Source: an uncultured Spirochaetota bacterium
GTDB lineage: Bacteria; Spirochaetota; Spirochaetia; SZUA-6; Fen-1364
Assembly (NCBI GenBank): GCA_963745235.1
Contig: CAVUXE010000028.1
Location: 1-64,000 of the forward strand
Direction: 5' to 3'
Length of the DNA stretch: 64,000 nucleotides
Shown one piece after another: positions 23,627 through 36,702 of the stretch (position 1 is its first letter; every line of letters starts with the position of its first letter). The position numbers and the translations under genes are program-made. The notes under the pieces were generated by a model. That model was given only the letters and a program-made list of their open reading frames with translations. It was not told the origin of the DNA and ran no database searches.

Positions 23627-24183
23627 AAAGGAGGTGGCTTTGGAACCCCGGCCTCTAAAAGAGGCCGGGTTCTTCGCGCTCCTTCTCTTCGAGCCGCTCG
23701 GCCTTTTCCTGATACTTAACGTAGCGCCGTATCTTCTCCGCATCCAGCCCTATCGTCGTTACGCAGTAGCCGCGGCTCCAGAAATGATTCCCCCAGTATG
23801 GCTTCCGCCTCAGGTGCGGGAAGTGTTTGAATATCCCGATTGCTGTCTTGCCTTTGAGAAACCCCATCAGCTCTGATATCGATGTTCTTGGAGGAGTGTT
23901 TACCACCAGATGCACGTGATCCGTCATCACCGCCAGTTCCTCTATCTCGCTATCCTTCCACTCGCAGATAGCTCTGATGCGTCCTTCGACGTACTTCCCT
24001 ACAGCTCCTTCCAGGATTCGCAATCGATATTTGGGAGTCCATACTATGTGATAGCTGCACTGGTAGACCACGTGCGACTGTTTTTTCCATTTCGGCATGC
24101 CCCCATGTTATTCGCAATCGGTCTTACGGCATAGCCATCAGGACATAACCACCGCCGCAGGCGGTGGGTTGTCAAGTTTCACT
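23627..24183 (-). mobile_element. IS200-like element, copy 2 (right-end hairpin interrupted)
   Basis: Left-end hairpin at 24147-24170; half hairpin AAAGGAGGTGGCTTT abuts the IS1182 end. Confidence 0.85.
23655..24098 (-). CDS. tnpA: IS200/IS605-family Y1 transposase (isoform)
   Basis: Same motifs as copy 1, with four amino-acid differences (F/L, S/N, D/E, D/K). Confidence 0.95.
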   Translation of the reverse strand: MPKWKKQSHVVYQCSYHIVWTPKYRLRILEGAVGKYVEGRIRAICEWKDSEIEELAVMTDHVHLVVNTPPRTSISELMGFLKGKTAIGIFKHFPHLRRKPYWGNHFWSRGYCVTTIGLDAEKIRRYVKYQEKAERLEEKEREEPGLF

Positions 24184-24267: not shown

Positions 24268-25794
24268 TCACGGGGACCGCTTCCCTGGCCTGAGAAGCAC
24301 AAACGCGCAGGCGTACGGGGGCAGGATGATTTGCGAAAGCGCTGCATCACCATTGCCGCCCAGTTCCCCCCGCTTGACGACCACCCTGTACTTCCTCCTG
24401 GTCGACTCCTTCTCCCAGGCGAATGCGAGGTCATCTTCGACAAGGACGCCGTTGAGAGCGAGTTGCGAAGAGCAGATGCCGCCGACCGGTTCAATGACGT
24501 ATTGCCTCCAGACCATGCCTGCGACGGTTATCATCGAACGGGTATCACGAAGGCTTACGAGGAGGAGACAGCGGCCTCGCAATTTCTTCGCCGCGGAGTG
24601 ATAGTACGCTCGGATCTTCCCCCCTGACTTTTCGACCACGTGTGCCCTGAACACCGCGTTTCCCATCAGCCTCTTCCAAAGAAAGCTTGCATAATAGTCG
24701 GGTCTGGGCTCGAAGGTATTCTGGTCGAGGAGCCCGTAATCCGAGCCAACGAGAGATTGCCGGAACACGCGGGAAACTCCCTCGCGGGCCAGGAGCCCCA
24801 ACTGGTCGAGCCACCAGATGGAGGAGAGGTACGTATCGGACAGCCCCGGTTCACCGCCGTAAAGGGCGTGCCCCGTCTCCGTCATCCAGATTTGCCTCCC
24901 GCGGGCATTCTTCACGACCCGCCGCGCCTGCTTTCGGACACTGTCGAGATGCCGAGGTTTCAGGAGCATTTTCTCGGACGCGCGCCTGTTTGCAAAACGG
25001 CCCCTGCTGGACTGCTGCGGGTAGTAGTGCCAGCTCATCACGTTGTCCGATCGCATCGCCCCGCTCCTGCCAAGGGTTGGCATGATAGGATTGGGTTCCC
25101 CGATCGCAGGAATTACAGCCGACGCTGGCCCCACGGCAAACGCGCGAGGGTGCAAATTCCGGATGAGCCCGGAGAATCCGGCAAAGTCCTCCACGTAGCG
25201 CGAGGCGCTCACTCGATATCTGAACCCGTGCGTGATCGGATAAGCGTTCACCTCGTTACCAAGCTCCCATGCCCGCACAGGAAAGCGCTTCTCCGCTGTA
25301 TAGGCGATGAGTGCGCGGGCGCTTGAGTCCATCCATGCCCCCTCGGCGTCGCGTTGGCTGGGCCCGGCGTTGACGACGAACAGGATCTGGAAACCGACCG
25401 TTGACGCGAAGGCATTGATTCGCTTCCAAAGACCTTTTCCCAGCACCATCTCCCGATCAGCATTCGCAGCATGATCGTCCGGCGTTTCCTGCTTCCGCCC
25501 ATTCTTCTCCCTGATCCGGTATCGGACACGGTCCGCCTCAGTGCCCCCTATCCGAATCATCGAAGGGGCGAGGAGTTTCGCAAAAGCGACCAGCCTCGCA
25601 TCGCATAGATCGAGGGGTGCCACCGTGTCTCTTGCGACTCCCCGGGAAATGCCCTTCGCCCGGCCCCACCAGTGCCCTCCCAGGACCAGGGATGTATCTA
25701 TGGTCAGCGAGAGGTAACCCGGGAACAGCGCTGCCACCTGCTCAGCCCCGAGGAGAACTCTGAAATGATTACTCTTGATCCGGGCTGCCGCCAT
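24268..25794 (-). CDS. Glycoside hydrolase family 79 (heparanase/beta-glucuronidase-like)
   Basis: RIGGTEAD, acid/base WELGNE, nucleophile WMTETG, WWLDQLG, RQSLVG.DYGL, PDYY. Confidence 0.9.
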   Translation of the reverse strand: MAAARIKSNHFRVLLGAEQVAALFPGYLSLTIDTSLVLGGHWWGRAKGISRGVARDTVAPLDLCDARLVAFAKLLAPSMIRIGGTEADRVRYRIREKNGRKQETPDDHAANADREMVLGKGLWKRINAFASTVGFQILFVVNAGPSQRDAEGAWMDSSARALIAYTAEKRFPVRAWELGNEVNAYPITHGFRYRVSASRYVEDFAGFSGLIRNLHPRAFAVGPASAVIPAIGEPNPIMPTLGRSGAMRSDNVMSWHYYPQQSSRGRFANRRASEKMLLKPRHLDSVRKQARRVVKNARGRQIWMTETGHALYGGEPGLSDTYLSSIWWLDQLGLLAREGVSRVFRQSLVGSDYGLLDQNTFEPRPDYYASFLWKRLMGNAVFRAHVVEKSGGKIRAYYHSAAKKLRGRCLLLVSLRDTRSMITVAGMVWRQYVIEPVGGICSSQLALNGVLVEDDLAFAWEKESTRRKYRVVVKRGELGGNGDAALSQIILPPYACAFVLLRPGKRSP

Positions 25795-25884
25795 TTGTTC
25801 CCTCGAATTCTCTCAATCTCAACAGCATGCTGACGCCAAGTTAACAAATCTTTGGTTCGAATTCCGACCGGGGAGGGGAAGACG

Positions 25885-26928
25885 ATGCGAATCGCCTATT
25901 CATTCGCGGGAGAAGGCCTGGGCCACGCCGCGAGAACCTCGGTCATCGGACCTCTTCTTGAAAATAACCACGATGTCGTGTATTTCGTGCCCGACGTGGC
26001 CCGAGACTTCGTCGTCTCCAAGTTGGGCAAGAGGCAGTATGAACGCATCCTCCATTTCTCTTTTCAGAAGAAAGGGGAGAGAGTTCGTCTCCTTGCCTCG
26101 ATTTTCTGCACCCTTCCCCTCCTTGTCCGTTTCCCCTTCGAGATTATGCGACTCATTGACCGCCTCCATGCGCTCAGGATTGACGCAGTTATCTCTGATT
26201 TCGATCCCTTTCTCCCCTGGGCGGCCAGGATCGCGGGAGTTCCCATACTGCAGATCAACCACCCCGGTATCGTCCAGCGCCTGCTGAGGCCTCGCTTCAT
26301 TGCCTTGATCACCGCGCTGGCGACCCGCCTCCTTGAAGGGCCGTGGAACGACAGGATACTCATCTCGTTTTACGACGGAGACGTGGGCCCGATCCTGCGA
26401 GAGGAAATCTTCGCGCATCCCGTACGAGACGACGGAACTATCCTCGTGAACCTCAAGGACTGCCTGAGACCGGTGGTTATCCCCGTTCTTGATGCGATGC
26501 ACCTGCGCTACCGACTCGTGCCGGATCCCAGGGAGAACTTCGAAGAAGCCATCGCTGCCTGCTCTTTCGTCCTTTCGACGGCGGGACACCAGATAATCGT
26601 TGAATCCATCGCCCTGAACAAGCCAATACTTGTTATTCCCCAGCAGGGTCAATGGGAACAGCAACTGAACGCGGAAATGGTTGAGAAGACGCGAAAGGGA
26701 AAATCCACCACCGTTGAACGGCTCCGCGATGACCTCGCAGAGTTCAAGCTCCACCTTGAGCGCTATCGATCCAGCCGAGTTCCGGCTTGCTTCGTGACCT
26801 CCGACGATCGAAGGTCGATACTCCGAAGGATCGAGGCCTTCCTGAGAGAATGCAAGGGAAGAAGGATGCGACTCAGGTCTTCCCGTCGTGCATCCGCCGT
26901 ACCGCTGGCGCTCGGCGGCGATTCGTGA
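25885..26928 (+). CDS. GT-B glycosyltransferase (MJ1255/VC2487-like, GT28 C-terminal)
   Basis: MRIAYSFAGEGLGHAAR, ISDFDP, STAGHQ..ES, P..GQWEQ..NA. Confidence 0.85.
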   Translation: MRIAYSFAGEGLGHAARTSVIGPLLENNHDVVYFVPDVARDFVVSKLGKRQYERILHFSFQKKGERVRLLASIFCTLPLLVRFPFEIMRLIDRLHALRIDAVISDFDPFLPWAARIAGVPILQINHPGIVQRLLRPRFIALITALATRLLEGPWNDRILISFYDGDVGPILREEIFAHPVRDDGTILVNLKDCLRPVVIPVLDAMHLRYRLVPDPRENFEEAIAACSFVLSTAGHQIIVESIALNKPILVIPQQGQWEQQLNAEMVEKTRKGKSTTVERLRDDLAEFKLHLERYRSSRVPACFVTSDDRRSILRRIEAFLRECKGRRMRLRSSRRASAVPLALGGDS

Positions 26929-26973
26929 GCGCGTCCAATGCAGGACCGTTCCCACTTATGCCATAGAAAAAAG

Positions 26974-26994
26974 ATATTTCACGAGTTAAAATAA
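26974..26994. promoter_or_regulatory. Putative ROK operator (autoregulatory)
   Basis: ATATTTCACGAGTTAAAATAA, 16/21 identical to the 29474 palindrome. Confidence 0.6.
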
Positions 26995-27010: not shown

Positions 27011-29440
27011 ATGAAACCAGCCAACAGGACGACTCGAGACCTACGCAGAATCAACAGAGGCCAGGCGCTCCGGACCTTGTACTTCGACGGGCCAGTCAGC
27101 CGGCTTCAGGTCAGCAGGATGACCGAGCTGAGCCCGGCAACGGTCTCGAACGTTGTAGCAGAGCTCCTGTCGGAAGGCATCATCATCGAGTCGGGGTCCG
27201 TGGATTCCGAGGTCGGACGCCCCAGCACGCTGCTTTCTATCAACCGACATTACGGCTGCTTCTTCGGGATCGAGGTGGGGGAGGCCCTGATCCGTATCGA
27301 AGTGTTCGACCTGATACTCTCACCCCTTGATTCACTTTCCATTCCCCTCAGTCTCATTGAGAACCCTCCCGAGCAGGTGGCCAAGGCTATTGCCGGCGGG
27401 ATCAACAAGCTCCTCGCGCAGCTGGGCTTCGGCAGGAAGCAGGTCATCGGCGTCGGCATCGGAATGCCGGGCATAGTCGATTCAGCGTCAGGAGTTTCAG
27501 TGTACGCCGCGCATTGGAACTGGCGTGACGTGCCTTTCCACGGCCTGCTGGAAGACGAGTTGGATTTTCCCTTTTTCCTGGAAAACGGCACGAACGCGAT
27601 GGCTTTTGCGGAGCACCTGTTCGGCTCCGGGGAGAAAGCGGGAAGCATGCTCGTGCTCTCACTCGGCAATGGCGTCGGGGCCGGCATCATAAGCGAGGGG
27701 AAGCTGTTCCGGGGCGTTTCCAACAGCGCCGGCGAATGGGGGCATACCACCGTGGACATCGACGGCCCGGCCTGTCGATGCGGCAGTCGCGGCTGCCTTG
27801 AGGCGTACATCGGATCTGCGGGAGTCATCCGGCGGTTCCTGGGCGATGAGGAGGGCCGGGACGCTCAGGGCCACGAGGACCAGCAGGAGCTCATCCAGTC
27901 CATCCTCGATGCCTCGCGGGAAGGGGATCCGCGCGCCAGGGCGGTGGTCCAAGATACGCTGCAGTATCTGGGGGTCGGGATCGCCAATCTCGTCAATCTC
28001 CTGAATCCGGCGAAGGTGGTCATCGGCGGATGGCTTGGGCTGCTCCTGGGAGAGCAGGCGCTTGCCGAACTGCGGGCGGTGCTCGCCCGGTTCGGGCTCG
28101 CGCAGCCCCGCGCCGCTGCATCCATCGAGCTGAGCAATCTGGGTCTGAAAGCCGAAACGCTCGGGGCCGCGGCCCTCGTCATGAGCCACTTCCTCGAAAA
28201 CGCAGGCCCTGATGCGAAGCTGACACGACACAAGAAGGCCTCGGGTTCCCGCAGGCCCCCCGTGCGGCTGGTCCGGGTCCTTGCCGTATCCGGCCTGGAA
28301 ACCAACGTCCTGCTTCGACACTTGTCCGAATTGCAGAGCCAGACCGGCATCACCCCGTCCATCGAGCAGGTGACCCGGTCCCAATGGGGAGAGAGAAAGA
28401 ACCGCGAGCTGGTGGAAAACTCCGGGTTCTACGACGTGATCATGGTGGCAGGAGGCGATGACCTCCTATGGGTCAAGCTCAAGGGGCACGTTCAACCTCT
28501 GAACGGGTACCTGCAGGATTCTGACCTCCGGCAGCTCATGCACCGGGAGTATTTCGAGAACGACGGCATGCTCTTCGGCATGCCCCAGTACTACAACTTC
28601 CCCATGCTCTATTACAGGAAAGACCTGCTTTCCGACCCCGCAGAGCAGAAGGCGTTCATGCGCAGGCACGGGAGGCCGCTGGCCCCTCCACGCGATTTCG
28701 ATGAGCTGGAGCGGGTGGCGGAGTTCTTCCATCGCCCGCCTGATCTGTACGGCTTCTTCGTCGGCGGGGTGGAATGGTCTGTTTTCCTGGATTACACGTA
28801 TTTCGCTTTCGGGAACCAGACGTACCTCGGGGACCCCGACACCGGGAAGCTGGCTCTTGATACCGCGGCGGCAAAACGCGCGATGGGGGCTCTGTGCAGG
28901 ATGGTCCGCTTCAACCCGCCGGGCTGGCAGACGCTGAGCTTCTTTGACGCAGAGCGGCTGTTCAAGTCCGGGAAGGTCTTCATGTACCAGAACTGGATGT
29001 ATGCGACGAAGATTCTCATGGCCGCCATGCCAGGAAAAGTCGGGATTGCTCCGGTGGTGGGCGACAAACAGCCCGGAGAACACCTGGGCTCATTCCTTGC
29101 GGTCATTCCCCGGGATGCTCCGAATCCTGACGCTGCCGGAAAGTTCATCTCCTGGATGCTCAGTCCCGGCTACCAGAAGGCCCAATCGATGGAAACGGGC
29201 AATCTTCCCGTTCGCAAGGATGTCCTTGAGGACCCGGAAGTCCAGGCAGCCCTTGTCGGTTTTGACCAGTATCAAAAGGCGCTGCCCTACCTTTCCTACC
29301 AGCGAACCACCTGGTTTGGCGAGCTGTCAGCCGGAATCAGCGAGGCAATATGGAAGATTCTGGGCGGTCAAATGACTCCTGATCAAGCCATGGATTGGCT
29401 TCAGAACACGAAATACAAGGATCGGAAGGCTATTGAATAG
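27011..29440 (+). CDS. ROK-family transcriptional regulator fused to a sugar solute-binding protein domain
   Basis: N-terminal HTH (SRLQVS..TELSPATVS..V, GRP) and ROK Zn motif GEWGHT...CRCGSRGCLE. From 28271 there is a collinear paralogue of the downstream SBP. Confidence 0.9.
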   Translation: MKPANRTTRDLRRINRGQALRTLYFDGPVSRLQVSRMTELSPATVSNVVAELLSEGIIIESGSVDSEVGRPSTLLSINRHYGCFFGIEVGEALIRIEVFDLILSPLDSLSIPLSLIENPPEQVAKAIAGGINKLLAQLGFGRKQVIGVGIGMPGIVDSASGVSVYAAHWNWRDVPFHGLLEDELDFPFFLENGTNAMAFAEHLFGSGEKAGSMLVLSLGNGVGAGIISEGKLFRGVSNSAGEWGHTTVDIDGPACRCGSRGCLEAYIGSAGVIRRFLGDEEGRDAQGHEDQQELIQSILDASREGDPRARAVVQDTLQYLGVGIANLVNLLNPAKVVIGGWLGLLLGEQALAELRAVLARFGLAQPRAAASIELSNLGLKAETLGAAALVMSHFLENAGPDAKLTRHKKASGSRRPPVRLVRVLAVSGLETNVLLRHLSELQSQTGITPSIEQVTRSQWGERKNRELVENSGFYDVIMVAGGDDLLWVKLKGHVQPLNGYLQDSDLRQLMHREYFENDGMLFGMPQYYNFPMLYYRKDLLSDPAEQKAFMRRHGRPLAPPRDFDELERVAEFFHRPPDLYGFFVGGVEWSVFLDYTYFAFGNQTYLGDPDTGKLALDTAAAKRAMGALCRMVRFNPPGWQTLSFFDAERLFKSGKVFMYQNWMYATKILMAAMPGKVGIAPVVGDKQPGEHLGSFLAVIPRDAPNPDAAGKFISWMLSPGYQKAQSMETGNLPVRKDVLEDPEVQAALVGFDQYQKALPYLSYQRTTWFGELSAGISEAIWKILGGQMTPDQAMDWLQNTKYKDRKAIE

Positions 29441-29463
29441 TCACTTTCGATAAGAGAAGTTAC

Positions 29464-29494
29464 TTGACCATATTTATTTTATGACATAAAATAA
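29464..29494 (+). promoter_or_regulatory. Promoter overlapped by a palindromic ROK-type operator
   Basis: TTGACC-17-TAAAAT; TTATTTTATGACATAAAATAA at 29474-29494. Confidence 0.75.
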
Positions 29495-29571
29495 GTCATA
29501 TAATGTAGATCAGGTGTCCCGCGCGTTGCACGGGCCAAGCACCCTATCCATTCTGAGGAGGCAATCTCTCC

Positions 29572-30831
29572 ATGCGAAAAACCATTGTAGTGATTCTGGC
29601 TGTCCTCATTGCTGTCGCCGCAGCCGGCAACGCCTTCGGGCAATCCTCTGCGGCCAAAGTTGTCCGCGTGCTCGCTGTCTCGGGACCCGAGACCGACGCT
29701 CTCATCAAGTACGCTGCGGACTTTGAAAAGCAGACGGGGATCACGGCTTCGATCGAGCAGGTCGCGAGACCCCTCTGGGGAGAGCGCAAGGTTCGGGAGC
29801 TCATGGAGGATTCCGGGCTCTATGACGTGGTCATGGTCGGCGGAGGGGATGATCTCCTGTGGGTCAAGCTGAAAGCCCACATCCGGACCCTGGATGACTA
29901 CCTCGACAAGAGCGACGTGGACCAGCTCCTGCTCAGCGACAATTTCAAGAAGGATGGCAGGCTCTTCGGCGTGCCTCAGTACTATAACTTCCCAATGCTG
30001 TATTACCGCAAGGACCTCCTGGAGAACCCGAAAGAGCAGGCAGCGTTCAAGGCGAAATACGGACGCGCTTTGACCCCGCCCCGCACCTTCGATGAGCTGG
30101 AGCAGGTCGCCCAATTCTTCAATCACCCCCCTAAGATGAGCGGGTTCTTCCTGGGCGGAGTGGACTGGTCCGTGTATCTCGACTACACCTACTTCATGTT
30201 CGGGAACAAGGCCAACCTCGGTGACCCTGAGACTGGGGCCCTGACTCTCAACTCACCCGAGGCAAAGAGGTCAATGACCGCGCTGACCCGGATGGTGCGG
30301 TTCAACCCGAAGGGATGGGAGACGGAGAACTTTTTCGACGGAGACCAGCTGTTCCTCCAGGGCAAAGTTTTCATGTACCAGAATTGGTTCTACATCACCA
30401 AAACGCTGATGGAAAAAATGCCCGGAAAGGTGGGAATGGTGCCGACAGTTGGCGACAAACAGCCCGGCGAGCACCTCGGGGCCTTCGTGGCTGTGATTCC
30501 GACGGCCGCTGCCAATCCCGATAACGCTGGCAAGTTCATTTCCTGGATGCTCAGCGCTCAATACCAGAAGGAGCAGGCTATTGACACGGGGGACTTGCCG
30601 GTCAGGCAGGATGTGATGAAGGATCCCGACGTGCAGAAGGCCATCCCGTACCTCCCGGAGTACCAGAAGGCGCTGCCGTACCTGACCTATCAGTATTCGA
30701 CGTGGCCCAACGAGCTTTCCAGCGGCATCAGCGAAGCGATCTGGAAAGTATTCAAGAAGCAAATGACCGCGGACCAGGCCTGCGACTGGCTGGAAAACGA
30801 AAAGTTCAAAGACCGCAGGGCGATCGAGTAG
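29572..30831 (+). CDS. Sugar ABC transporter solute-binding protein (CUT1)
   Basis: Signal peptide; YDVVM, PMLYYRKDLL, PPRTFDEL. Confidence 0.9.
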   Translation: MRKTIVVILAVLIAVAAAGNAFGQSSAAKVVRVLAVSGPETDALIKYAADFEKQTGITASIEQVARPLWGERKVRELMEDSGLYDVVMVGGGDDLLWVKLKAHIRTLDDYLDKSDVDQLLLSDNFKKDGRLFGVPQYYNFPMLYYRKDLLENPKEQAAFKAKYGRALTPPRTFDELEQVAQFFNHPPKMSGFFLGGVDWSVYLDYTYFMFGNKANLGDPETGALTLNSPEAKRSMTALTRMVRFNPKGWETENFFDGDQLFLQGKVFMYQNWFYITKTLMEKMPGKVGMVPTVGDKQPGEHLGAFVAVIPTAAANPDNAGKFISWMLSAQYQKEQAIDTGDLPVRQDVMKDPDVQKAIPYLPEYQKALPYLTYQYSTWPNELSSGISEAIWKVFKKQMTADQACDWLENEKFKDRRAIE

Positions 30832-30911: not shown

Positions 30912-31829
30912 GTGAGCCCAATGGGCATTGCGCGTGGGATGACAGGCAGGCACCGAGGCGTCGTCAGGAGGCGGGCAGGGATCGTCCTGACCTTGCCGTC
31001 TCTTCTGTTCGTCTTCGCTTTCCTTGTCTATCCGATAGCGGACCTGGTAAGGGTGAGCTTTTACGACTATTCCCCGCTTCGCTCCTCGGCGTCGCCGTTC
31101 GTGGGATTGAGGAACTACAAATGGATGCTTGCGTCCGACACGGTCTGGCACTCCCTTTCCGTGACCATCCTGTTCACGATGTTGAGCGTGCTCCTCGAGG
31201 TGGTAGCCGGCCTCGCGATTGCGCTCCTGCTTGCAAAGCTGATTCTTGACACGAAGAACGCCTGGGCCAGGTTTCTGAGCAGGACAGCCAACGGAATCTT
31301 CATCCTTCCCTTCGCGGCCCCCGGGATCGTTGCGGCAATAGCGTGGAAGATGCTCCTGCATCCCCAGTTCAGCCCGATAAACGCGATCCTGGGTGTCCAG
31401 GTTGCATGGTTCACGGACTTTCCCCTGCTCAGCATTGTTGTTGCTGACGCCTGGAAGACGATGCCTTTGATCCTCTTCCTCACGCTGTCGGCGCTTCTTT
31501 CCATCGACAATTCGCAGTTCGAAGCAGCGCGCATGGATGGGGCCCGGCCGTGGCATGAGCTAGCCTACCTGACCCTCCCCGCAATCCTCCCCGTGCTGGC
31601 AGTAACGTGCGCCTTCCGCGCCGTGGACGCGTTCACGAAGGTCTTCGACATTGTGTTCGGCACCACGGGGGGCGGACCGGGAAACGACACGCAGGTATTC
31701 CCTCTGCTCATCTGGCAGACGGGCTTTACCAATCTCCACTTCGGACAGGCCGCCAGCCTCGCAGTGCTCGCCATCGCCATCTCCGCGCTGCTCGGCTGGG
31801 TCCTGGTATTATCCCGGAGGGCTGGATGA
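30912..31829 (+). CDS. Sugar ABC permease (MalF-like)
   Basis: FVGLRNY, EAARMDGA loop, TM helices. Confidence 0.9.
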   Translation: MSPMGIARGMTGRHRGVVRRRAGIVLTLPSLLFVFAFLVYPIADLVRVSFYDYSPLRSSASPFVGLRNYKWMLASDTVWHSLSVTILFTMLSVLLEVVAGLAIALLLAKLILDTKNAWARFLSRTANGIFILPFAAPGIVAAIAWKMLLHPQFSPINAILGVQVAWFTDFPLLSIVVADAWKTMPLILFLTLSALLSIDNSQFEAARMDGARPWHELAYLTLPAILPVLAVTCAFRAVDAFTKVFDIVFGTTGGGPGNDTQVFPLLIWQTGFTNLHFGQAASLAVLAIAISALLGWVLVLSRRAG

Positions 31830-32647
31830 TTAGCAAACGATCCTCCGCGGCTGTCCGATCATTCGTCCTCCTGCTCCTGATGCTGGCCGCCCTCCTTCCC
31901 ATGCTCTGGATGCTGATCAGCTCCTTCAAAACAGAGGGGGAGATCTACCTGGATCCGCCGACCTGGATCCCGCATCTGCCCACACTTGCGAACTACGGCG
32001 CGCTCTTCCAGCAGTTCGGGTTTGCCCGGCTGACGTTCAACAGCCTCGTGATCACGTGCGCCGTGGTGGCCCTCAGCATCGTGTTCGGCACCATGGCGGC
32101 CTACGGGTTTTCCCGCTACGGTTTCAGGGGAAGCGGGGTCCTTCTCGGGGCTTTGCTCCTGACACGGATGATCACCCCGGCATCCCTCGTGCTGCCCCTG
32201 TACTCCCTCATGCGGGCTCTCGGGCTGCTGAACTCCCTGACCAGCATCGCCGTCGGCATTGCGGTCCTCAACCTCCCCTTTGTTGTCTGGATGATGAAGC
32301 CGTTTTTCGACCAACTTCCCCACGAGATCGAGGAAGCCGCGGAACTGGACGGCCTCACCCCTGTCGGGGTGTTCTGGCGCGCTGCGCTGCCTATGGCCGC
32401 TCCCGGCCTGTACAGCATCTTTCTCTTCAGCTTCGTGGCGGGCTGGGTGGATCTGTTGTTCGGAATCACGTTTGCCACCACGCCGCGAGCCATGCCCCTG
32501 ACTGCAGGCCTCATGCAGATGCAGACGGGGTACAAGATCTACTGGGGCCCCCTCATGGCCGGAGGCATTTACCTGTCTCTGCCGACCATGATCCTGGCCT
32601 TCTTCTTTCAGAAGAGCCTGGTGAACGGGCTCAGAGTCACCACCTGA
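31826..32647 (+). CDS. Sugar ABC permease (MalG-like)
   Basis: ISSFK, AAYGFSR, EEAAELDG; ATGA overlap with the upstream gene. Confidence 0.9.
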   Translation: MISKRSSAAVRSFVLLLLMLAALLPMLWMLISSFKTEGEIYLDPPTWIPHLPTLANYGALFQQFGFARLTFNSLVITCAVVALSIVFGTMAAYGFSRYGFRGSGVLLGALLLTRMITPASLVLPLYSLMRALGLLNSLTSIAVGIAVLNLPFVVWMMKPFFDQLPHEIEEAAELDGLTPVGVFWRAALPMAAPGLYSIFLFSFVAGWVDLLFGITFATTPRAMPLTAGLMQMQTGYKIYWGPLMAGGIYLSLPTMILAFFFQKSLVNGLRVTT

Positions 32648-32668: not shown

Positions 32669-34687
32669 ATGAGCACGCACCCTGAGCTGATACGAAACGG
32701 AGTCCTCACTGTCAACGGCGCCCGGGTTCCCGTCCTGAGCGGAGAGATCCACTTCTTCCGCATGTCCCCGGAGACCTGGGATACCGCGCTGGCGAACCTC
32801 AAGGCCATCGGTCTCCCCATGGTGTCTACGTACCTGAGCTGGAGGCGATTCTCCCTGGGCCCGGATCGATACGACCTGGAGGGCAGAACCGACCCGAGGT
32901 TGAACGTGAAGGGGTTCCTTGAGCTGTGCCGGAAGCACGGGCTGTGGGTCACCATGAAGCCCGGGCCGTGGATCTGCGCTGAAGAGGCCAACGGAGGATA
33001 CCCGGACTGGCTCGTAGAGCGGGAGGAGCTTCAGGTACTGAACGCGGCCGGCGAGCCCGTGCAGGGCTACACCCCCGCTTTTCGGTCACCCATCCCAAGC
33101 TATCTCCACCCCGCATACCTTGAAGCTGTCCGTGTCTGGCTTCGGGAGGTGGACGCGGTGATTGCCGACTACGTGCATCCCCGCGGGCCGATCATCCTGG
33201 TCCAGCTGGACAATGAGCCCTCCATGACTTTCCACGACCGGCTGCTGGAATCCGACTACAATCGCGTCAACGTCGGAAAAGATGGCCTCTACAGCCAGTG
33301 GCTGGAAGGCAAGTATGGAACGATCTCGAAGCTGAACAGGACGTACAGAAGCTCATGGCCATCCTTCTCCTGCGTTGAGGCGCCACGCTCCATCGGACCC
33401 GAGATCCTGGAAACCTCTGCGCCCTGGGCAGATTGGGTGGAGTTCAAGGAGCTCATGATGGTCCGGCATGTTGCGAAGCTCGCGGAGCTGCATCGGGAGA
33501 ACGGCCTTGCGCAGGTCGTTTTCACAATCAACTACAACGAGCACCCGCAGCTCGGCGTTCCCAACGACTGGCGCAGCCTGGAGCTGGCCAGCGGGATGGG
33601 CGGCTTTGACTTCTACCCCCGGATGCCTCTCGGCGCGTCAGGCCTTGCAGACGTCGCGCTGTTCGTGGGCTACAGCCGGGCCTGCAATGTCATTCCCTGG
33701 TCTCCGGAGATCATGAGCGGAAAGTGGAGCTTCGAGGGTCAGGAACATGAGCCCGGTGAGCTTCGAAGCGCAGACTTCGAGCTTCTCTATCTGAGCTGCA
33801 TAGCCTTCGGGCTCAAGGGGATGAACTTCTACATGTTCGCAGACCGGGACAACTGGATCGATTCCCCCCTTGACGCGGCCGGATGTCCCCGGCCGAACCT
33901 TGAGGCGGTCAGGAACGTCGTTCGGCTTGTCAGCGAAGAGCCTGAGCTCGAGTCTTTCGATCGGAACCAGCCGGTCGCGGTTCTGTACTACCGGCCGCAT
34001 GCCCGCGAGGCATTCATCGCGGACGCTTCCCCTGCGCCCCTGACCATCGGCGGCTTTTGTCTCGGGTCCTCCTACTCCTGTTTCAAGTCGATTTTCAGCG
34101 AGCTGCATCGGCTGAACCTGGATCCTGCCGTGGTCGATCCATGGGTCGGACTCGGGACGCTCACGGCGACGCGTCCGGAAATGCTTCCTGCGCACCGGCT
34201 CCTTTTCGTTCCGGGCGGGTCTTCCATGGACGAGGCGACTCTTCGCCTGCTGGACGATTTCGTGGCTGGCGGGGGGAGTGTCGTGTGGGTTGGACGGCGG
34301 CCGGAGCGGGATCTGGGCGGCGGGCACTTCACGGGAAGCCACTGTTGCCTCACGGAAGAACGCACGCGCGGCGTCTTGGCGAGCCCGACCGGCGAACCGG
34401 ACAGCAAGACGCTTCTTCGCATCCTGGATGAAGAGCGCATCGGCCCGGAGGTTCCTGCCAGCGTTCCGGGAATCCTTACGACGCTTCACAGGTCCCGGTC
34501 ACGTGAATGGCTGTTCGTGGTGAACATCGGGGAGACGCGCCAGAATGTCGAGCTCAGGTTCCCCGACCCGCACCTGAAGGGGATGATTTCGCTCCCGGGC
34601 GGCAACCTGAGAGTACGCGTGAAAAACTCAAGCGCGCGGCTGACCTGCGAGCCGCAGTCCGTTCAGGTCTGGAGGCTCGATCCCTGA
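32669..34687 (+). CDS. Beta-galactosidase-like glycoside hydrolase (GH35/GH42 clan A)
   Basis: SGEIHFFR, KPGPWICAE..NGG.PDWL, IILVQLDNE. Confidence 0.85.
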   Translation: MSTHPELIRNGVLTVNGARVPVLSGEIHFFRMSPETWDTALANLKAIGLPMVSTYLSWRRFSLGPDRYDLEGRTDPRLNVKGFLELCRKHGLWVTMKPGPWICAEEANGGYPDWLVEREELQVLNAAGEPVQGYTPAFRSPIPSYLHPAYLEAVRVWLREVDAVIADYVHPRGPIILVQLDNEPSMTFHDRLLESDYNRVNVGKDGLYSQWLEGKYGTISKLNRTYRSSWPSFSCVEAPRSIGPEILETSAPWADWVEFKELMMVRHVAKLAELHRENGLAQVVFTINYNEHPQLGVPNDWRSLELASGMGGFDFYPRMPLGASGLADVALFVGYSRACNVIPWSPEIMSGKWSFEGQEHEPGELRSADFELLYLSCIAFGLKGMNFYMFADRDNWIDSPLDAAGCPRPNLEAVRNVVRLVSEEPELESFDRNQPVAVLYYRPHAREAFIADASPAPLTIGGFCLGSSYSCFKSIFSELHRLNLDPAVVDPWVGLGTLTATRPEMLPAHRLLFVPGGSSMDEATLRLLDDFVAGGGSVVWVGRRPERDLGGGHFTGSHCCLTEERTRGVLASPTGEPDSKTLLRILDEERIGPEVPASVPGILTTLHRSRSREWLFVVNIGETRQNVELRFPDPHLKGMISLPGGNLRVRVKNSSARLTCEPQSVQVWRLDP

Positions 34688-34707: not shown

Positions 34708-35694
34708 CTACTTCCCCGATTCTCCCAGCATCTTCCGCATCAAGGAGGCTATGCGGATGGCGTCCGAGCTCTGGAAGCACCCGCGCAGCTCGTTCCGGTC
34801 CACGCGGTCCAGCATCTCATAGCACATGCGGATGTTGGCGATGCTCTGCGCCACGGCGTCTTCCGGCATCTCGCGGAACGGAAACAGGTCCAGGCCGAAC
34901 CAGCCGTCGTAGCCCAGCTCGTCCAGCCAGAACAACAGCTCCACCGTTTCCCAGAGGTTCACCATGCCCACCATGGCGTCATCGTCATACATCTTCGAGT
35001 TGTCGTTCCAGTGCGTGTGGAAGAGCTTCTTGTAGCGCATGGCGAAGGCAAAGGTCTCCGCGAGGTTCTCATTCATGATCAGCGCGTGTCCCGTCTCGAT
35101 GTTGATGCCGAGGTTGGGACGATTGATCTCGTTGAGGAGCGTCACCGTCTGCCCCACATTGGGAAGCAGGATATGCGCACGGGGATCATAGGCCTTGTAC
35201 TCCACGACAATACGCTGCCGAGGGTTGTGGTCCGCCCACTCCGCAAGACCTTCCGCCAGGGTGTCCCACCGGCGCGGGAAATCCACCTGGAAAGGGTAGT
35301 CGTACCCGTCCTGGGCAGGCCAGTAGCACATCTGGCTCACGTCCAGCTCACCGCAGATGTCACTCACCTTCTTGGCGAAGTCGATTGCGCGACGTCGCAG
35401 CGCCTTGTCAGGATTGCTGAACTGGCCGAACTTGTACACCGGGTCGATCCACAGATGCGGCGTGATCATGACGAAGCGCAGGTTGAGGTCCGCCGCCCGC
35501 TTCTTCATGTGCTTGAAGTTCGCGTCGTTGAGCTCGGTGGGGTAATGCATCTCAAGGCCGCCCACGGCGGGGATCTTCCCGGCTGCTTCCAGGCGCTCCT
35601 CCACGGTCCTGTCGGGCCTGTACCCTGCCTTCACGAACCGGTCCCCCGTGGCTCCCATGTACCACAGACCGACTGATATCTTGAGCTCACGCAT
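34708..35694 (-). CDS. Xylose isomerase-like TIM-barrel sugar isomerase
   Basis: WPAQDGYDYPFQ, EYKAYDPR, GH, HWND, DDD metal ligands. Confidence 0.85.
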   Translation of the reverse strand: MRELKISVGLWYMGATGDRFVKAGYRPDRTVEERLEAAGKIPAVGGLEMHYPTELNDANFKHMKKRAADLNLRFVMITPHLWIDPVYKFGQFSNPDKALRRRAIDFAKKVSDICGELDVSQMCYWPAQDGYDYPFQVDFPRRWDTLAEGLAEWADHNPRQRIVVEYKAYDPRAHILLPNVGQTVTLLNEINRPNLGINIETGHALIMNENLAETFAFAMRYKKLFHTHWNDNSKMYDDDAMVGMVNLWETVELLFWLDELGYDGWFGLDLFPFREMPEDAVAQSIANIRMCYEMLDRVDRNELRGCFQSSDAIRIASLMRKMLGESGK

Positions 35695-35739
35695 GTCATG
35701 CCTCCTCTTCACCGGTGAGGTCCGCGCGCGAAGGCCTGA

Positions 35740-36702
35740 TCAGGCCCAGTACATCTCGCCGGGCTTCTCACCCATCAACGCTTCTTGCAGAAGGGCAACG
35801 CCCTTTGCCAGGCCTTCGTCCCGGGACATCATGGCGTCCTCATGCTCGATGGAAACGACGTAGTCGTAGCCCACCATGCGCAGCGCGCTCATGATGTCCT
35901 TCCACGTCTTTGCATCGTGCCCATAGCCGATGCTGCGGAATGTCCACGCCCGTTCGAGAATCCGATCGTACGGCTTGTTGTCGTTGCAGCCGTTCACGGA
36001 CACGTTGATCCGGTCCACCGCGCAGTCCTTTCCGTGGACGTGAAAGATGCTCGGTCCCAGCTTCCTGATGGCCGCGGGCAGATCGACCCCGTTCCAGAAC
36101 AGGTGGCTGGGATCCAGGTTGCACCCGATCACAGGCCCCACGGCTTCCCGGAGCTTCAGCATGGTTTCCACGTTGTAGACGAGGAAGCCGGGGTGCATCT
36201 CTACGGCAATCTTCACCCCGTTGTCCCGCGCAAACTCCCCCGCCTGCTTCCAGTATGGGATGGCGACCTGGTTCCACTGGTAGTCCAGCATGGTGAGATT
36301 GTGCGGCGGCCAGGGACAGGTGACCCAACTCGGGGACTTGTCACCGGGACAGCCCGCGGGCAGGCCGGACGTCACATTGACCACGGGTACTCTCAGCAGC
36401 GCGGCGAGCTTCACCGTCTTTCGAAAGATCTCATCCGATTCTCTTGCAAGCTTCACCTCCGGCGACAGCGGCTCGTAATGGCAGCTGAAAGCGCTGATCA
36501 TGAGGCCGCGCGCGGCCACCGAGGCCAGGTACGCGTCACGCTTCCCCTGGCTCGCCAGAAGCTCCTCCACGGGGCAGTGATGGCTGCCGGGGTACCCGCC
36601 CGTTCCTATTTCCACCGCGGAGATCCCTGCGGCCTTGATGGTGTCCAGGGCCTCTTCGAACGGGAGGTCCTGGAAGAGAACCGTGAATACGCCGATGCGC
36701 AT
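35740..36702 (-). CDS. Sugar phosphate isomerase/epimerase (AP_endonuc_2, IolE-like)
   Basis: EIGTGGYPG, EMHPG, DPSH, HVHGKD, SIEHED. Confidence 0.9.
   Translation of the reverse strand: MRIGVFTVLFQDLPFEEALDTIKAAGISAVEIGTGGYPGSHHCPVEELLASQGKRDAYLASVAARGLMISAFSCHYEPLSPEVKLARESDEIFRKTVKLAALLRVPVVNVTSGLPAGCPGDKSPSWVTCPWPPHNLTMLDYQWNQVAIPYWKQAGEFARDNGVKIAVEMHPGFLVYNVETMLKLREAVGPVIGCNLDPSHLFWNGVDLPAAIRKLGPSIFHVHGKDCAVDRINVSVNGCNDNKPYDRILERAWTFRSIGYGHDAKTWKDIMSALRMVGYDYVVSIEHEDAMMSRDEGLAKGVALLQEALMGEKPGEMYWA

What the first reader, a model, noticed from the sequence alone, without database searches (positions are those of the whole stretch)
27011..30831. ROK repressor fused to a cytoplasmic duplicate of the operon's own ABC solute-binding protein
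Seen: one 809-aa ORF combines an HTH, an intact ROK Zn-motif domain, a basic linker and a ~390-aa domain. That domain is collinear without gaps with the mature part of the adjacent SBP (29572-30831), roughly 60% identical by eye, and starts exactly where the SBP signal peptide ends. The divergence argues against an assembly duplication, and the missing signal peptide argues against two genes joined by a lost stop. Known: ROK repressors (NagC/Mlc/XylR) sense ligand through the ROK domain and normally carry no CUT1 SBP domain. Inference: a dual-input transcription factor that recruited the transporter's binding protein as an intracellular sensor of the imported oligosaccharide, or that docks on the permease.
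Basis: partly seen in the sequence, partly recalled or inferred. Interest (0 to 1): 0.8.

Follow-up and report, generated by a model that had tools for sequence, protein, structure and literature searches.

The report
ROK repressor fused to transporter's binding protein
A sugar-operon repressor has permanently picked up a signal-peptide-less copy of its own transporter's sugar-binding protein, probably as an internal sugar sensor, which shows how new ligand-sensing regulators can arise.

Summary
ORF 27011-29440 (809 aa) is a winged-HTH + ROK repressor, then a 20-aa basic linker, then a 391-aa CUT1 solute-binding (SBP') domain with no signal peptide. SBP' is 65% identical, without gaps, to the mature part of the secreted SBP encoded next door (29572-30831).

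It is not an assembly artefact. The two copies are 66.7% identical in DNA. Contigs from three independent studies bridge the junction. Seven other fused lineages (61-82% identity) exist in metagenomes.

A tree puts all fused domains in one clade (100/100), sister to the neighbouring free SBPs. This points to one old duplication and fusion followed by co-divergence. The fused copy accumulates about 2-2.5 times more non-synonymous change but stays under purifying selection.

A perfect palindrome, TTATTTTAT-GAC-ATAAAATAA, sits inside the SBP promoter. A weaker copy sits in the same register in the regulator's own promoter.

Canonical ROK cleft motifs that are invariant in 31 unfused relatives drift in the fused clade. 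SBP' keeps 68 of 89 family-invariant sites.

Best reading (inferred): a local repressor whose SBP' domain senses the imported oligosaccharide in the cytoplasm. The architecture is very rare: one cluster among 1.84 billion representatives. I found it in no paper. It is a new variant of a known kind.

The parts
26964..26992 (+). Promoter-like site P1 (TAGAAA-17-TAAAAT) in front of the fused regulator gene
   Evidence: consensus scan only, 2 sites found against 1.0 +/- 1.0 in shuffles. The sequence is read.
26974..26994 (+). Operator-like site O1 (ATATTTCACGAGTTAAAATAA), 16 of 21 matches to O2, with TT/AA kept at +/-5,6. It starts 10 nt after the start of the -35 hexamer, the same register as O2.
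   Evidence: the only other 21-mer in the 64-kb window within 6 mismatches of O2. Local shuffles give a mean of 0.035 hits at <=5 mismatches (maximum 1). It aligns with the O2 core.
27011..29440 (+). Fused regulator gene, 809 aa (P0001)
27011..27250 (+). Winged helix-turn-helix DNA-binding domain plus GR-containing linker (residues 1-80)
   Evidence: The AF2 model has helices 8-26, 31-38 and 42-55 and strands 58-64 and 72-77. Foldseek aligns about 400 columns, DBD included, to the operator-bound ROK repressor Lmo0178 (5f7q, TMt 0.83-0.85), to 1z05 and to Mlc. Weak HTH_24 hit. Highly conserved among fused homologues.
27263..28201 (+). ROK (ASKHA-fold) domain, residues 85-397, with ExGH and CxCGxxGCxE
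   Evidence: Pfam ROK E 1.6e-56. PDB sequence hits to Lmo0178, 1z05 and Mlc. Motif columns.
28202..28264 (+). Basic, disordered linker (residues 398-418). Length 19-20 aa and net charge +5 to +8 in all seven fused proteins examined, with poor sequence conservation.
   Evidence: pLDDT below 50 at 407-415. Linker lengths and charges. Alignment.
28265..29437 (+). SBP' domain: a CUT1-type solute-binding fold without signal peptide, paralogue of the neighbouring SBP
   Evidence: (MalE3 6dtq, GacH, TMBP).
29464..29492 (+). Promoter-like site P2 (TTGACC-17-TAAAAT) of the transporter operon
   Evidence: The -35 hexamer is conserved in L099 and L100.
29474..29494 (.). Operator O2: a perfect 9-3-9 palindrome, TTATTTTAT-GAC-ATAAAATAA, between the -35 and across the -10 of P2
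   Evidence: 0 expected in shuffles. It is the only such site in the 5.85-Mb genome at <=1 mismatch in the 14 arm positions. Conserved in L099 (1 change) and L100 (3 changes).
29572..30831 (+). Secreted free SBP (419 aa, P0002) with Sec-type signal sequence
30912..31829 (+). ABC permease 1 (BPD_transp_1)
31826..32647 (+). ABC permease 2 (BPD_transp_1). Its start overlaps the stop of permease 1.
   Evidence: translation begins MISKRSS.
32669..34687 (+). GH35-like glycoside hydrolase (672 aa), probably cytoplasmic
   Evidence: Pfam Glyco_hydro_35 4.5e-34 and GLMA_2nd. Closest solved chains: exo-beta-D-glucosaminidase 5gsm (2.3e-41) and beta-1,2-glucosyltransferase 7vkx (1.7e-40).

Best explanation
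The 809-aa protein is the dedicated repressor of the adjacent SBP-permease-permease-GH35 operon, and probably of its own gene. Its wHTH/ROK half binds two palindromic operators, O1 and O2, that sit in the same register inside the two promoters. Its C-terminal half is an old, selected duplicate of the transporter's binding protein that lost its signal peptide and so stays in the cytoplasm. The likely mechanism is as follows. The oligosaccharide brought in by the transporter is bound by the SBP' domain. The Venus-flytrap closure of that domain is passed through the short basic linker, which is attached to the last ROK helix. This changes the oligomer geometry or DNA affinity of the ROK repressor and de-represses the operon. 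SBP' has probably taken over most of the inducer sensing from the ROK cleft. Shown here: the anatomy, conservation, single origin, purifying selection, operators and synteny. Inferred: ligand binding by SBP', the direction of regulation, and the hand-over of sensing.
For: (1) The fusion is real and conserved. Among the proteins scored, six other 90% clusters are fused (P0004-P0009, 61-82% identity). L099 adds one more lineage. P0226 and P0227 are further full-length members. Contigs from 3 studies bridge the junction. (2) Single origin. In the careful ML tree of 40 SBP rows, the 8 fused domains form one clade (100/100), sister (86/80) to the 5 free SBPs of window type (99/92). (3) Selection. 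For orthologue pairs, dN is 0.158-0.249 for the fused domain and 0.080-0.102 for the free SBP in the same three loci. Nominal dN/dS is <=0.21 for these orthologue pairs, with dS saturated. (4) Synteny. In 3 of the 3 fused loci with downstream DNA (window, L099, L100), a free SBP and then permease genes follow. L099 reaches the GH35-like gene too; L100's contig ends inside the first permease. (5) Operators. O2 is a perfect palindrome inside P2, unique in the genome and conserved in L099 and L100. O1 lies in the same register in P1. The same TTATTTT-N7-AAAATAA box lies within about 100 nt upstream of unfused ROK genes in 6 of the 80 ROK loci fetched. It has TT/AA at +/-5,6, the only fully conserved positions of NagC/Mlc sites (PMC4288165, passages read). 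(6) The DNA-binding half is intact. The fold matches operator-bound Lmo0178 and Mlc, and the GR linker motif is present. (7) The SBP' core is kept. Of 89 sites (nearly) invariant in 31 free SBPs, 68 are kept in all 8 fused domains, and most of the other 21 are conservative changes. The equivalents of MalE W62, W230 and W340 are kept in the window's fused domain and free SBP; the E111 position is Asn in both (alignment at about 20% identity). (8) The ROK cleft drifts. DxGET (88-92), NGA (192-194) and parts of the GxG loop (217-224) are invariant or nearly so in 31 unfused relatives but polymorphic among the 7 fused proteins, at similar overall divergence (median pairwise identity 63% against 60%).
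Against: There are no experimental data of any kind. Ligand binding by SBP' is not shown. Two positions that are universal in free SBPs are changed in every fused copy (P429L, D648E). Position 769 (F in fused, P in the neighbouring SBPs) maps to a MalE sugar-contact position (Y341), and 429 maps to MalE D14. So the pocket may be retuned or even disabled. That mapping rests on a low-identity sequence alignment. The AF2 model gives no confident inter-domain arrangement (pTM 0.61). ExGH, the Zn cysteines and E264 of the ROK domain remain invariant, so ROK-cleft sensing cannot be excluded. The unfused comparison set is dominated by Streptomyces sequences. The promoter scan is a sigma-70 consensus match, and the count of sites is not above chance. 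The RNA evidence is two low-depth metatranscriptome contigs, which do not prove transcription.
Confidence: 0.55

Rival explanations
1. True dual-input regulator. The ROK cleft still binds one effector (for example the monosaccharide or sugar-phosphate product) and SBP' binds the intact imported oligosaccharide. The repressor integrates both signals.
For: ExGH (E242, H245), the Zn motif and E264 are invariant in all fused proteins. Solved ROK repressors include an inducer-bound state of Lmo0178 (5f7r entry title). SBP' keeps most family-invariant sites.
Against: The DxGET and NGA loops and part of the GxG loop are strictly conserved in 31 unfused relatives but vary within the fused clade: G90 to R/D, N192 to K, G193 to N/R.
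Confidence: 0.2
2. SBP' no longer binds sugar. It serves as a structural module for oligomerisation or steric control, or it contacts another protein such as the transporter's cytoplasmic ATPase, as a loose analogy to Mlc sequestration by EIICB.
For: The fused domain evolves about 2-2.5 times faster than the free SBP. It has fixed changes at two universally conserved positions and at a MalE Y341-equivalent position. The Mlc/EIIB complex shows that ROK repressors can be controlled by protein contacts (3bp8).
Against: 68 of 89 family-invariant sites are kept, including the aromatic residues aligned with MalE W62, W230 and W340. No ATPase gene lies in the operon. SBPs are not known to contact the cytoplasmic face of the transporter (general knowledge).
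Confidence: 0.15
3. A neutral or decaying fusion (a by-product of a deletion) or an assembly artefact, with no function for the C-terminal half.
For: The architecture is extremely rare: one fused representative among 1.84 billion. It was found in none of 60 relatives or 400 genomes sampled from the same phylum.
Against: Eight lineages down to 61% identity keep the whole frame open, with a constant linker length. Nominal dN/dS is <=0.21 between fused orthologues. Independent assemblies bridge the junction. DNA identity to the neighbour is only 66.7%.
Confidence: 0.03

Closest known systems
ROK-family repressors with solved structures: Lmo0178 of Listeria monocytogenes (5f7p/q/r), Mlc of E. coli (1z6r, 3bp8), the Vibrio Mlc homologue 1z05, and NagC
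   Same: N-terminal wHTH + GR linker + ROK domain with ExGH and a Zn motif. Foldseek TMt is 0.80-0.87 over about 400 columns and sequence E-values are 1e-34 to 1e-45. The operator is an AT-rich palindrome with TT/AA at +/-5,6. The protein regulates an adjacent sugar ABC-transport operon.
   Different: None of these carries a C-terminal SBP domain. Scores are far below the NCBIfam NagC and Mlc equivalog cut-offs (188 against 650; 169 against 530). The cleft motifs drift in the fused clade.
LacI/GalR repressors (HTH + type I periplasmic-binding-protein fold) and LysR-type regulators (HTH + type II PBP fold); E. coli XylR (PBP-like domain + AraC DNA-binding domain). All recalled from general knowledge.
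   Same: The principle is the same: a Venus-flytrap binding-protein fold used inside the cell as the effector sensor of a DNA-binding protein.
   Different: Those are ancient families with no recognisable donor gene. Here the donor SBP is still next door at 65% identity, the DNA-binding partner is a complete ROK repressor that already had its own sensor domain, and the SBP' is C-terminal. There were no LacI, Peripla_BP or LysR Pfam hits.
CUT1 sugar-binding proteins of ABC importers (T. maritima MalE3 6dtq, T. litoralis TMBP 1eu8, GacH 3jzj, the beta-1,2-glucooligosaccharide SBP 5yse, E. coli MalE)
   Same: SBP_bac_1/8 fold. The aromatic positions aligned with MalE W62, W230 and W340 are kept.
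   Different: No signal peptide or lipobox, covalently tied to a repressor, faster evolution, and fixed changes at positions equivalent to MalE D14 and Y341.
Unfused ROK-SBP-permease-permease-GH35 operons (L001, an Actinomycetota MAG; L102, a metagenome contig)
   Same: Same gene order and the same SBP, permease and GH35 families: SBP 64-65%, permeases 57-66%, GH35 46-55% identical.
   Different: ROK and SBP are separate genes and there is only one SBP copy. Their ROK is only 38% identical to the fused ROK half, so it is not its direct orthologue. The closest unfused ROK found is P0028 at 53% identity.

Membership tests
ROK-family transcriptional repressor (NagC/Mlc/XylR type) | ROK (ASKHA) domain | tested here: met
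   Pfam PF00480 E 1.6e-56, 192 bits against cut-off 22.9.
ROK-family transcriptional repressor (NagC/Mlc/XylR type) | N-terminal winged HTH followed by a Gly/Arg linker | tested here: met
   AF2 secondary structure. The Foldseek alignment includes the DBD of Lmo0178, Mlc and 1z05. 'EVGRP' is read, and the GR motif is described in PMC4288165. The Pfam HTH_24 hit is only sub-threshold.
ROK-family transcriptional repressor (NagC/Mlc/XylR type) | Zn-binding motif H...CxCGxxGCxE and ExGH | tested here: met
   GEWGH and CRCGSRGCLE are present and invariant in the 7 fused and 31 unfused sequences. The motif definitions are recalled from general knowledge.
ROK-family transcriptional repressor (NagC/Mlc/XylR type) | Palindromic operator near the regulated promoter | tested here: met
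   In silico only: O2 is perfect and unique in the genome, O1 is weaker. Binding is not tested.
NagC or Mlc orthologue (NCBIfam equivalogs) | Score above the curated equivalog cut-off | tested here: not met
   NagC 188.5 against 650; Mlc 169.1 against 530. It is a ROK repressor, but not NagC or Mlc.
ROK sugar kinase | N-terminal DxGxT phosphate-1 motif and a catalytic Asp in the xNDxN loop; no DNA-binding domain | tested here: not met
   The window protein has EVGEA at 88-92 and ENGTNA at 191-196, and it carries a wHTH. The motif definitions are recalled.
CUT1 ABC-importer solute-binding protein (SBP_bac_1 / SBP_bac_8) | SBP fold and Pfam family | tested here: met
   Both the fused domain and the free SBP hit PF01547 and PF13416 above cut-off. 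Foldseek hits MalE3, GacH and TMBP.
CUT1 ABC-importer solute-binding protein (SBP_bac_1 / SBP_bac_8) | Export signal (Sec signal peptide or lipobox) that places it outside the membrane | tested here: not met
   The fused domain follows a polar, basic linker and has no hydrophobic segment (maximum KD19 1.57), whereas the free SBP reaches 2.48 at its N-terminus. So the fused domain has the SBP fold but cannot act as the transporter's receptor.
LacI/GalR family | LacI-type HTH + Peripla_BP_1/3 domain | tested here: not met
   No such Pfam hits. It resembles this family in principle only.

The most novel reading that the evidence does not exclude
This is a regulator caught in the middle of swapping its sensor. 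After a ROK repressor captured a signal-less duplicate of its transporter's binding protein, the SBP' domain became the inducer sensor and the ancestral ROK cleft was released from constraint. That would make it a living intermediate, with the donor gene still adjacent, of the route by which 'binding-protein + HTH' regulator families such as LacI/GalR are thought to have arisen. The length-conserved, strongly basic 20-aa linker would then be the new allosteric or DNA-contacting coupling element.
Probability: 0.35. Interest if true: 0.8.

Novelty: new variant of a known kind. Interest (0 to 1): 0.6.

Why it matters
Binding-protein folds are the effector domains of the largest bacterial regulator families, but their recruitment happened so long ago that no donor can be recognised. 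Here the donor (the free SBP), the recipient (a complete ROK repressor), the operators and the regulated operon are all in one locus. Unfused relatives are available for comparison. This makes several questions directly testable: how an extracellular receptor becomes an intracellular allosteric sensor, what happens to the recipient's old sensor, and how the signal is coupled. It also suggests a natural design for biosensors: a repressor fused to the SBP of the transporter, giving 'sense what you import' specificity.

Tried and rejected
(1) Complex prediction of the ROK half (1-405) against SBP' (419-809) using alignment A3. The verdict was 'no answer' (score 0.00, mark 0.32), so it gives no information either way.

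(2) Search for earlier notes of this scan by place, by sequence and by words: nothing found.

(3) Literature searches:
- 'ROK family' + 'solute-binding protein' + 'fused' (2 papers, irrelevant by title and abstract).
- 'ROK' + 'SBP_bac_1' + 'transcription' (3 papers, irrelevant).
- ROK / repressor / substrate-binding protein / domain fusion / ABC transporter (57 papers, 15 listed; none holds 'domain fusion').
- Periplasmic binding protein / transcription factor / gene fusion and related terms.
- One-component / SBP_bac_1 / SBP_bac_8 and related terms.
None describes this architecture. The SBP-signalling review PMC8050422 (passages only) has 0 occurrences of 'fused', 'transcriptional regulator' and 'ROK'. 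Supplements were not available, and subscription journals are not covered.

(4) Taxon naming. The phylum is therefore not stated.

(5) L001 first looked like a fused hit (query residues 4-809). It proved to be two separate genes.

(6) P0078 and P0128 matched across the linker coordinates. They proved to be fragments of free SBPs with signal peptides.

(7) The idea that each fused domain is the recent duplicate of its own neighbour (concerted or recurrent fusion) was rejected by the tree.

Neither is exhaustive.

(9) RNA run X14 laid two short contigs on the locus (27459-27697 and 30019-30437). This is too little to claim expression.


Full report
OBSERVATION

The window holds an 809-aa ORF at 27011-29440 (+) and a 419-aa ORF at 29572-30831 (+).

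Pfam places three domains in the long protein: ROK at residues 85-391 (E 1.6e-56), SBP_bac_1 at 444-723 and SBP_bac_8 at 475-746. It also gives a sub-threshold HTH_24 match at 19-58. NCBIfam finds NagC-like and Mlc-like similarity, but far below the equivalog cut-offs.

BLASTP aligns residues 419-809 to residues 29-419 of the neighbouring SBP. The alignment has 256/391 identities (65%) and no gap.

The free SBP begins with a hydrophobic signal sequence. The fused protein has none, and its junction is a polar, basic stretch with net charge +5. The identity is 65%, not 'about 60%', and homology starts about five residues after the likely cleavage site.

NOT AN ARTEFACT, NOT A FRESH ACCIDENT

- The two copies are only 66.7% identical in DNA.
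- Logan contigs from three different studies run across the junction with no indel: X1 27160-29115, X2 28178-28446, X3 28104-28434.
- The word-indexed protein search returned six other 90% clusters with the same ROK + SBP architecture over the full length where the sequence is complete: P0004 82%, P0005 77%, P0006 70%, P0007 64%, P0008 61%, P0009 61%. Only the 8000 candidates sharing most words were scored.
- Two further full-length members, P0226 and P0227, belong to two of those clusters.
- The metagenome scan added one more lineage (L099) and the DNA of P0009 (L100).
- In all seven fused proteins examined the linker is 19-20 aa long with net charge +5 to +8, although its sequence is poorly conserved.

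HOW RARE

- An exhaustive HMMER pass over 1.84 billion 50% representatives found a single fused representative (P0004) among the best 150. The two hits that seemed to span the linker (P0078, P0128) are fragments of ordinary secreted SBPs.
- 'Longer-protein' searches with the ROK half and with the free SBP returned only this clade as ROK+SBP proteins. They also returned two unrelated ROK fusions. The tool itself calls this weak evidence.
- None of 60 relatives (20 of the same genus) has a fused form; their best ROK hits are 34-35% identical. None of 400 genomes drawn from the same phylum has a match at E <= 1e-100.
- I found no paper describing the architecture. Supplements and subscription journals were not covered.

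ORIGIN

Downstream DNA is available for three fused loci: the window, L099 and L100. In all three a free, signal-bearing SBP and then permease genes follow the fused gene. The window and L099 also show the second permease and the GH35-like hydrolase. L100's contig ends inside the first permease.

Unfused operons with the same order (ROK, one SBP, two permeases, GH35) exist in L001 and L102. Their ROK is only 38% identical to the fused ROK half, so they illustrate the ancestral layout and are not the direct ancestor. The closest unfused ROK found is P0028 at 53%.

A careful ML tree of 40 SBP rows has this composition:
- 8 fused domains;
- 5 free SBPs of the window type, 3 of them verified neighbours of a fused gene;
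- 27 other free SBPs.

The tree puts all fused domains in one clade (100/100). That clade is sister (86/80) to the window-type free SBPs (99/92), and the pair is nested in free SBPs (100/99). The branching order within the two clades is compatible with co-divergence.

So one duplication of the SBP gene, loss of the signal peptide and fusion to the upstream ROK gene occurred in a common ancestor. The alternative, that each fused domain pairs with its own neighbour, is rejected.

SELECTION

Between the same three loci, non-synonymous divergence is as follows:

| Pair | Fused domain dN | Free SBP dN |
|---|---|---|
| window - L099 | 0.158 | 0.080 |
| window - L100 | 0.247 | 0.102 |
| L099 - L100 | 0.249 | 0.100 |

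The fused copy therefore evolves 2.0-2.5 times faster. Its nominal dN/dS is <=0.21 for these orthologue pairs. Synonymous sites are saturated (dS above 1), so the ratios are only rough.

Of 89 sites that are invariant or nearly so in 31 free SBPs, 68 are kept in all 8 fused domains. Most of the other 21 are conservative changes. Only P429L and D648E are fixed differences at positions universal in free SBPs.

I aligned E. coli MalE to the family. All 14 remembered landmark residues of MalE checked out in the K-12 sequence. The mapping gives:
- MalE W62, W230 and W340 fall on conserved W487, W662 and W768.
- MalE E111 falls on N529.
- Position 429 (P to L) falls on MalE D14.
- The fixed F769 (P in the neighbouring SBPs) falls on MalE Y341.

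At about 20% identity this mapping is tentative. It suggests a preserved aromatic pocket that has been retuned.

THE ROK HALF

The AF2 model has mean pLDDT 88 and pTM 0.61, with the linker (407-415) below 50. Its N-terminal 400 residues superpose on operator-bound Lmo0178 (TMt 0.83-0.85), on 1z05 and on Mlc.

The ExGH motif, the Zn cysteines and E264 are invariant. The kinase phosphate-1 motif is absent, and a DNA-binding domain is present, so this is a repressor and not a kinase.

In 31 unfused relatives (pairwise identity 41-99%, median 63%), the DxGET loop (88-92) and the NGA loop (192-194) are invariant or nearly so. In the 7 fused proteins (median identity 60%) these loops vary: E/D at 88, G/R/D at 90, A/T/S at 92, N/K at 192, G/N/R at 193, T/A/P at 194. 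Parts of the GxG loop (217-224) vary too.

Overall, 50 of the 110 sites invariant in unfused relatives are changed in at least one fused protein. The unfused set is dominated by Streptomyces and is a sister group, so this is suggestive and not proof. It fits relaxation of the old ROK cleft after the new domain arrived.

OPERATORS

Upstream of the free SBP gene lies a perfect 9-3-9 palindrome, TTATTTTAT-GAC-ATAAAATAA (29474-29494). It sits between a -35-like TTGACC and across a -10-like TAAAAT.
- It is the only such site in the 5.85-Mb genome.
- It is the best-conserved intergenic segment in L099 (1 change) and L100 (3 changes).

The only other 21-mer in the window within 6 mismatches of it (5 mismatches) lies at 26974-26994. 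That is in front of the fused gene, again starting 10 nt after the start of a -35-like hexamer (local shuffles give a mean of 0.035).

The same TTATTTT-N7-AAAATAA box lies within about 100 nt upstream of unfused ROK genes in 6 of the 80 ROK loci fetched: L028, L031, L039, L047, L051 (two sites) and L077. In four of these loci (L028, L047, L051, L077) the ROK gene is followed by a GH35-like gene, as it also is in L019 and L037, which lack an exact box.

The box has TT/AA at +/-5,6. Passages of PMC4288165 state that these are the only fully conserved positions of NagC and Mlc operators.

MECHANISM (inferred)

The protein is the local repressor of the transporter/GH35 operon and probably of its own gene. 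The transported oligosaccharide reaches the cytoplasm and binds SBP'. Closure of SBP' is passed through the short basic linker, which is attached to the last ROK helix, to the repressor's quaternary structure or DNA-binding geometry. The operon is then de-repressed.

The substrate is unknown. The GH35-like enzyme is closest to exo-beta-D-glucosaminidase (5gsm) and to a beta-1,2-glucosyltransferase (7vkx). The SBP fold also matches a beta-1,2-glucooligosaccharide binder, among many maltose-type SBPs.

Rival readings are a true dual-input regulator, a non-binding structural or protein-contact role for SBP', and a neutral fusion. They are weighed in the rivals section.

COMPARISON AND NOVELTY

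The protein is a member of the ROK repressor family, and all tested defining features are met. It is not a NagC or Mlc orthologue. It carries a domain with the CUT1 SBP fold that fails the export criterion.

It works like LacI/GalR or LysR regulators in using a binding-protein fold as a cytoplasmic sensor, but it is not a member of those families.

It is a new variant of a known kind. Its value lies in having donor, recipient, operators and target operon all preserved at one locus, with unfused relatives available for comparison.

Noticed in passing
window 23655-24098 (-): An IS200-like Y1 transposase gene (Pfam Y1_Tnp, E 6.2e-39) lies 3 kb upstream of the fused gene. Together with the absence of the locus from 60 relatives, this hints that the region may be accessory or horizontally acquired.
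   Followed up: no
window 24268-25794 (-) and 25852-26928 (+): A GH79-like hydrolase (Glyco_hydro_79n, 2.4e-25) and a GT28/GT1-like glycosyltransferase lie directly upstream of the regulator. Two xylose-isomerase-like TIM-barrel genes lie downstream on the minus strand (34708-35712, 35740-36702). They may belong to the same sugar pathway.
   Followed up: partly
L028 7909-7929, L031 7921-7941, L039 3561-3581, L047 7930-7950, L051 5886-5906 and 5916-5936, L077 3393-3413: The same TTATTTT-N7-AAAATAA box sits just upstream of unfused ROK regulator genes in Chloroflexota, Anaerolineales, Caldilineales and Chthoniobacteraceae MAGs. In L028, L047, L051 and L077 the ROK gene is directly followed by a GH35-like gene. 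This looks like a conserved ROK-box/GH35 regulon spread across phyla.
   Followed up: partly
window 28202-28264 (linker, residues 398-418) and homologues: The linker between ROK and SBP' keeps its length (19-20 aa) and a strong positive charge (+5 to +8) in all seven fused proteins, while its sequence is free to vary. This suggests a functional role, such as DNA contact or an electrostatic tether.
   Followed up: partly
P0009 (649 aa) against L100 3-1925: The database gene call P0009 starts at an internal Met inside the ROK domain, although it lies on a 103-kb contig. On L100 the identical frame stays open to the contig end. It is either a mis-called start or frameshift, or a truly N-terminally truncated variant without the DNA-binding domain. 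I could not decide without that contig.
   Followed up: no
P0228 (933 aa, Rubneribacter badeniensis, 41 member sequences): An unrelated odd architecture surfaced in the 'longer' search: ROK fused to ion-channel domains (PF00480 + PF00520 + PF07885).
   Followed up: no
window 29495-29571: The 5' leader of the SBP gene in the window carries an extra GC-rich insert (about 29520-29545, 'CCCGCGCGTTGCACGGGCC', a possible hairpin) that is absent from L099 and L100.
   Followed up: no
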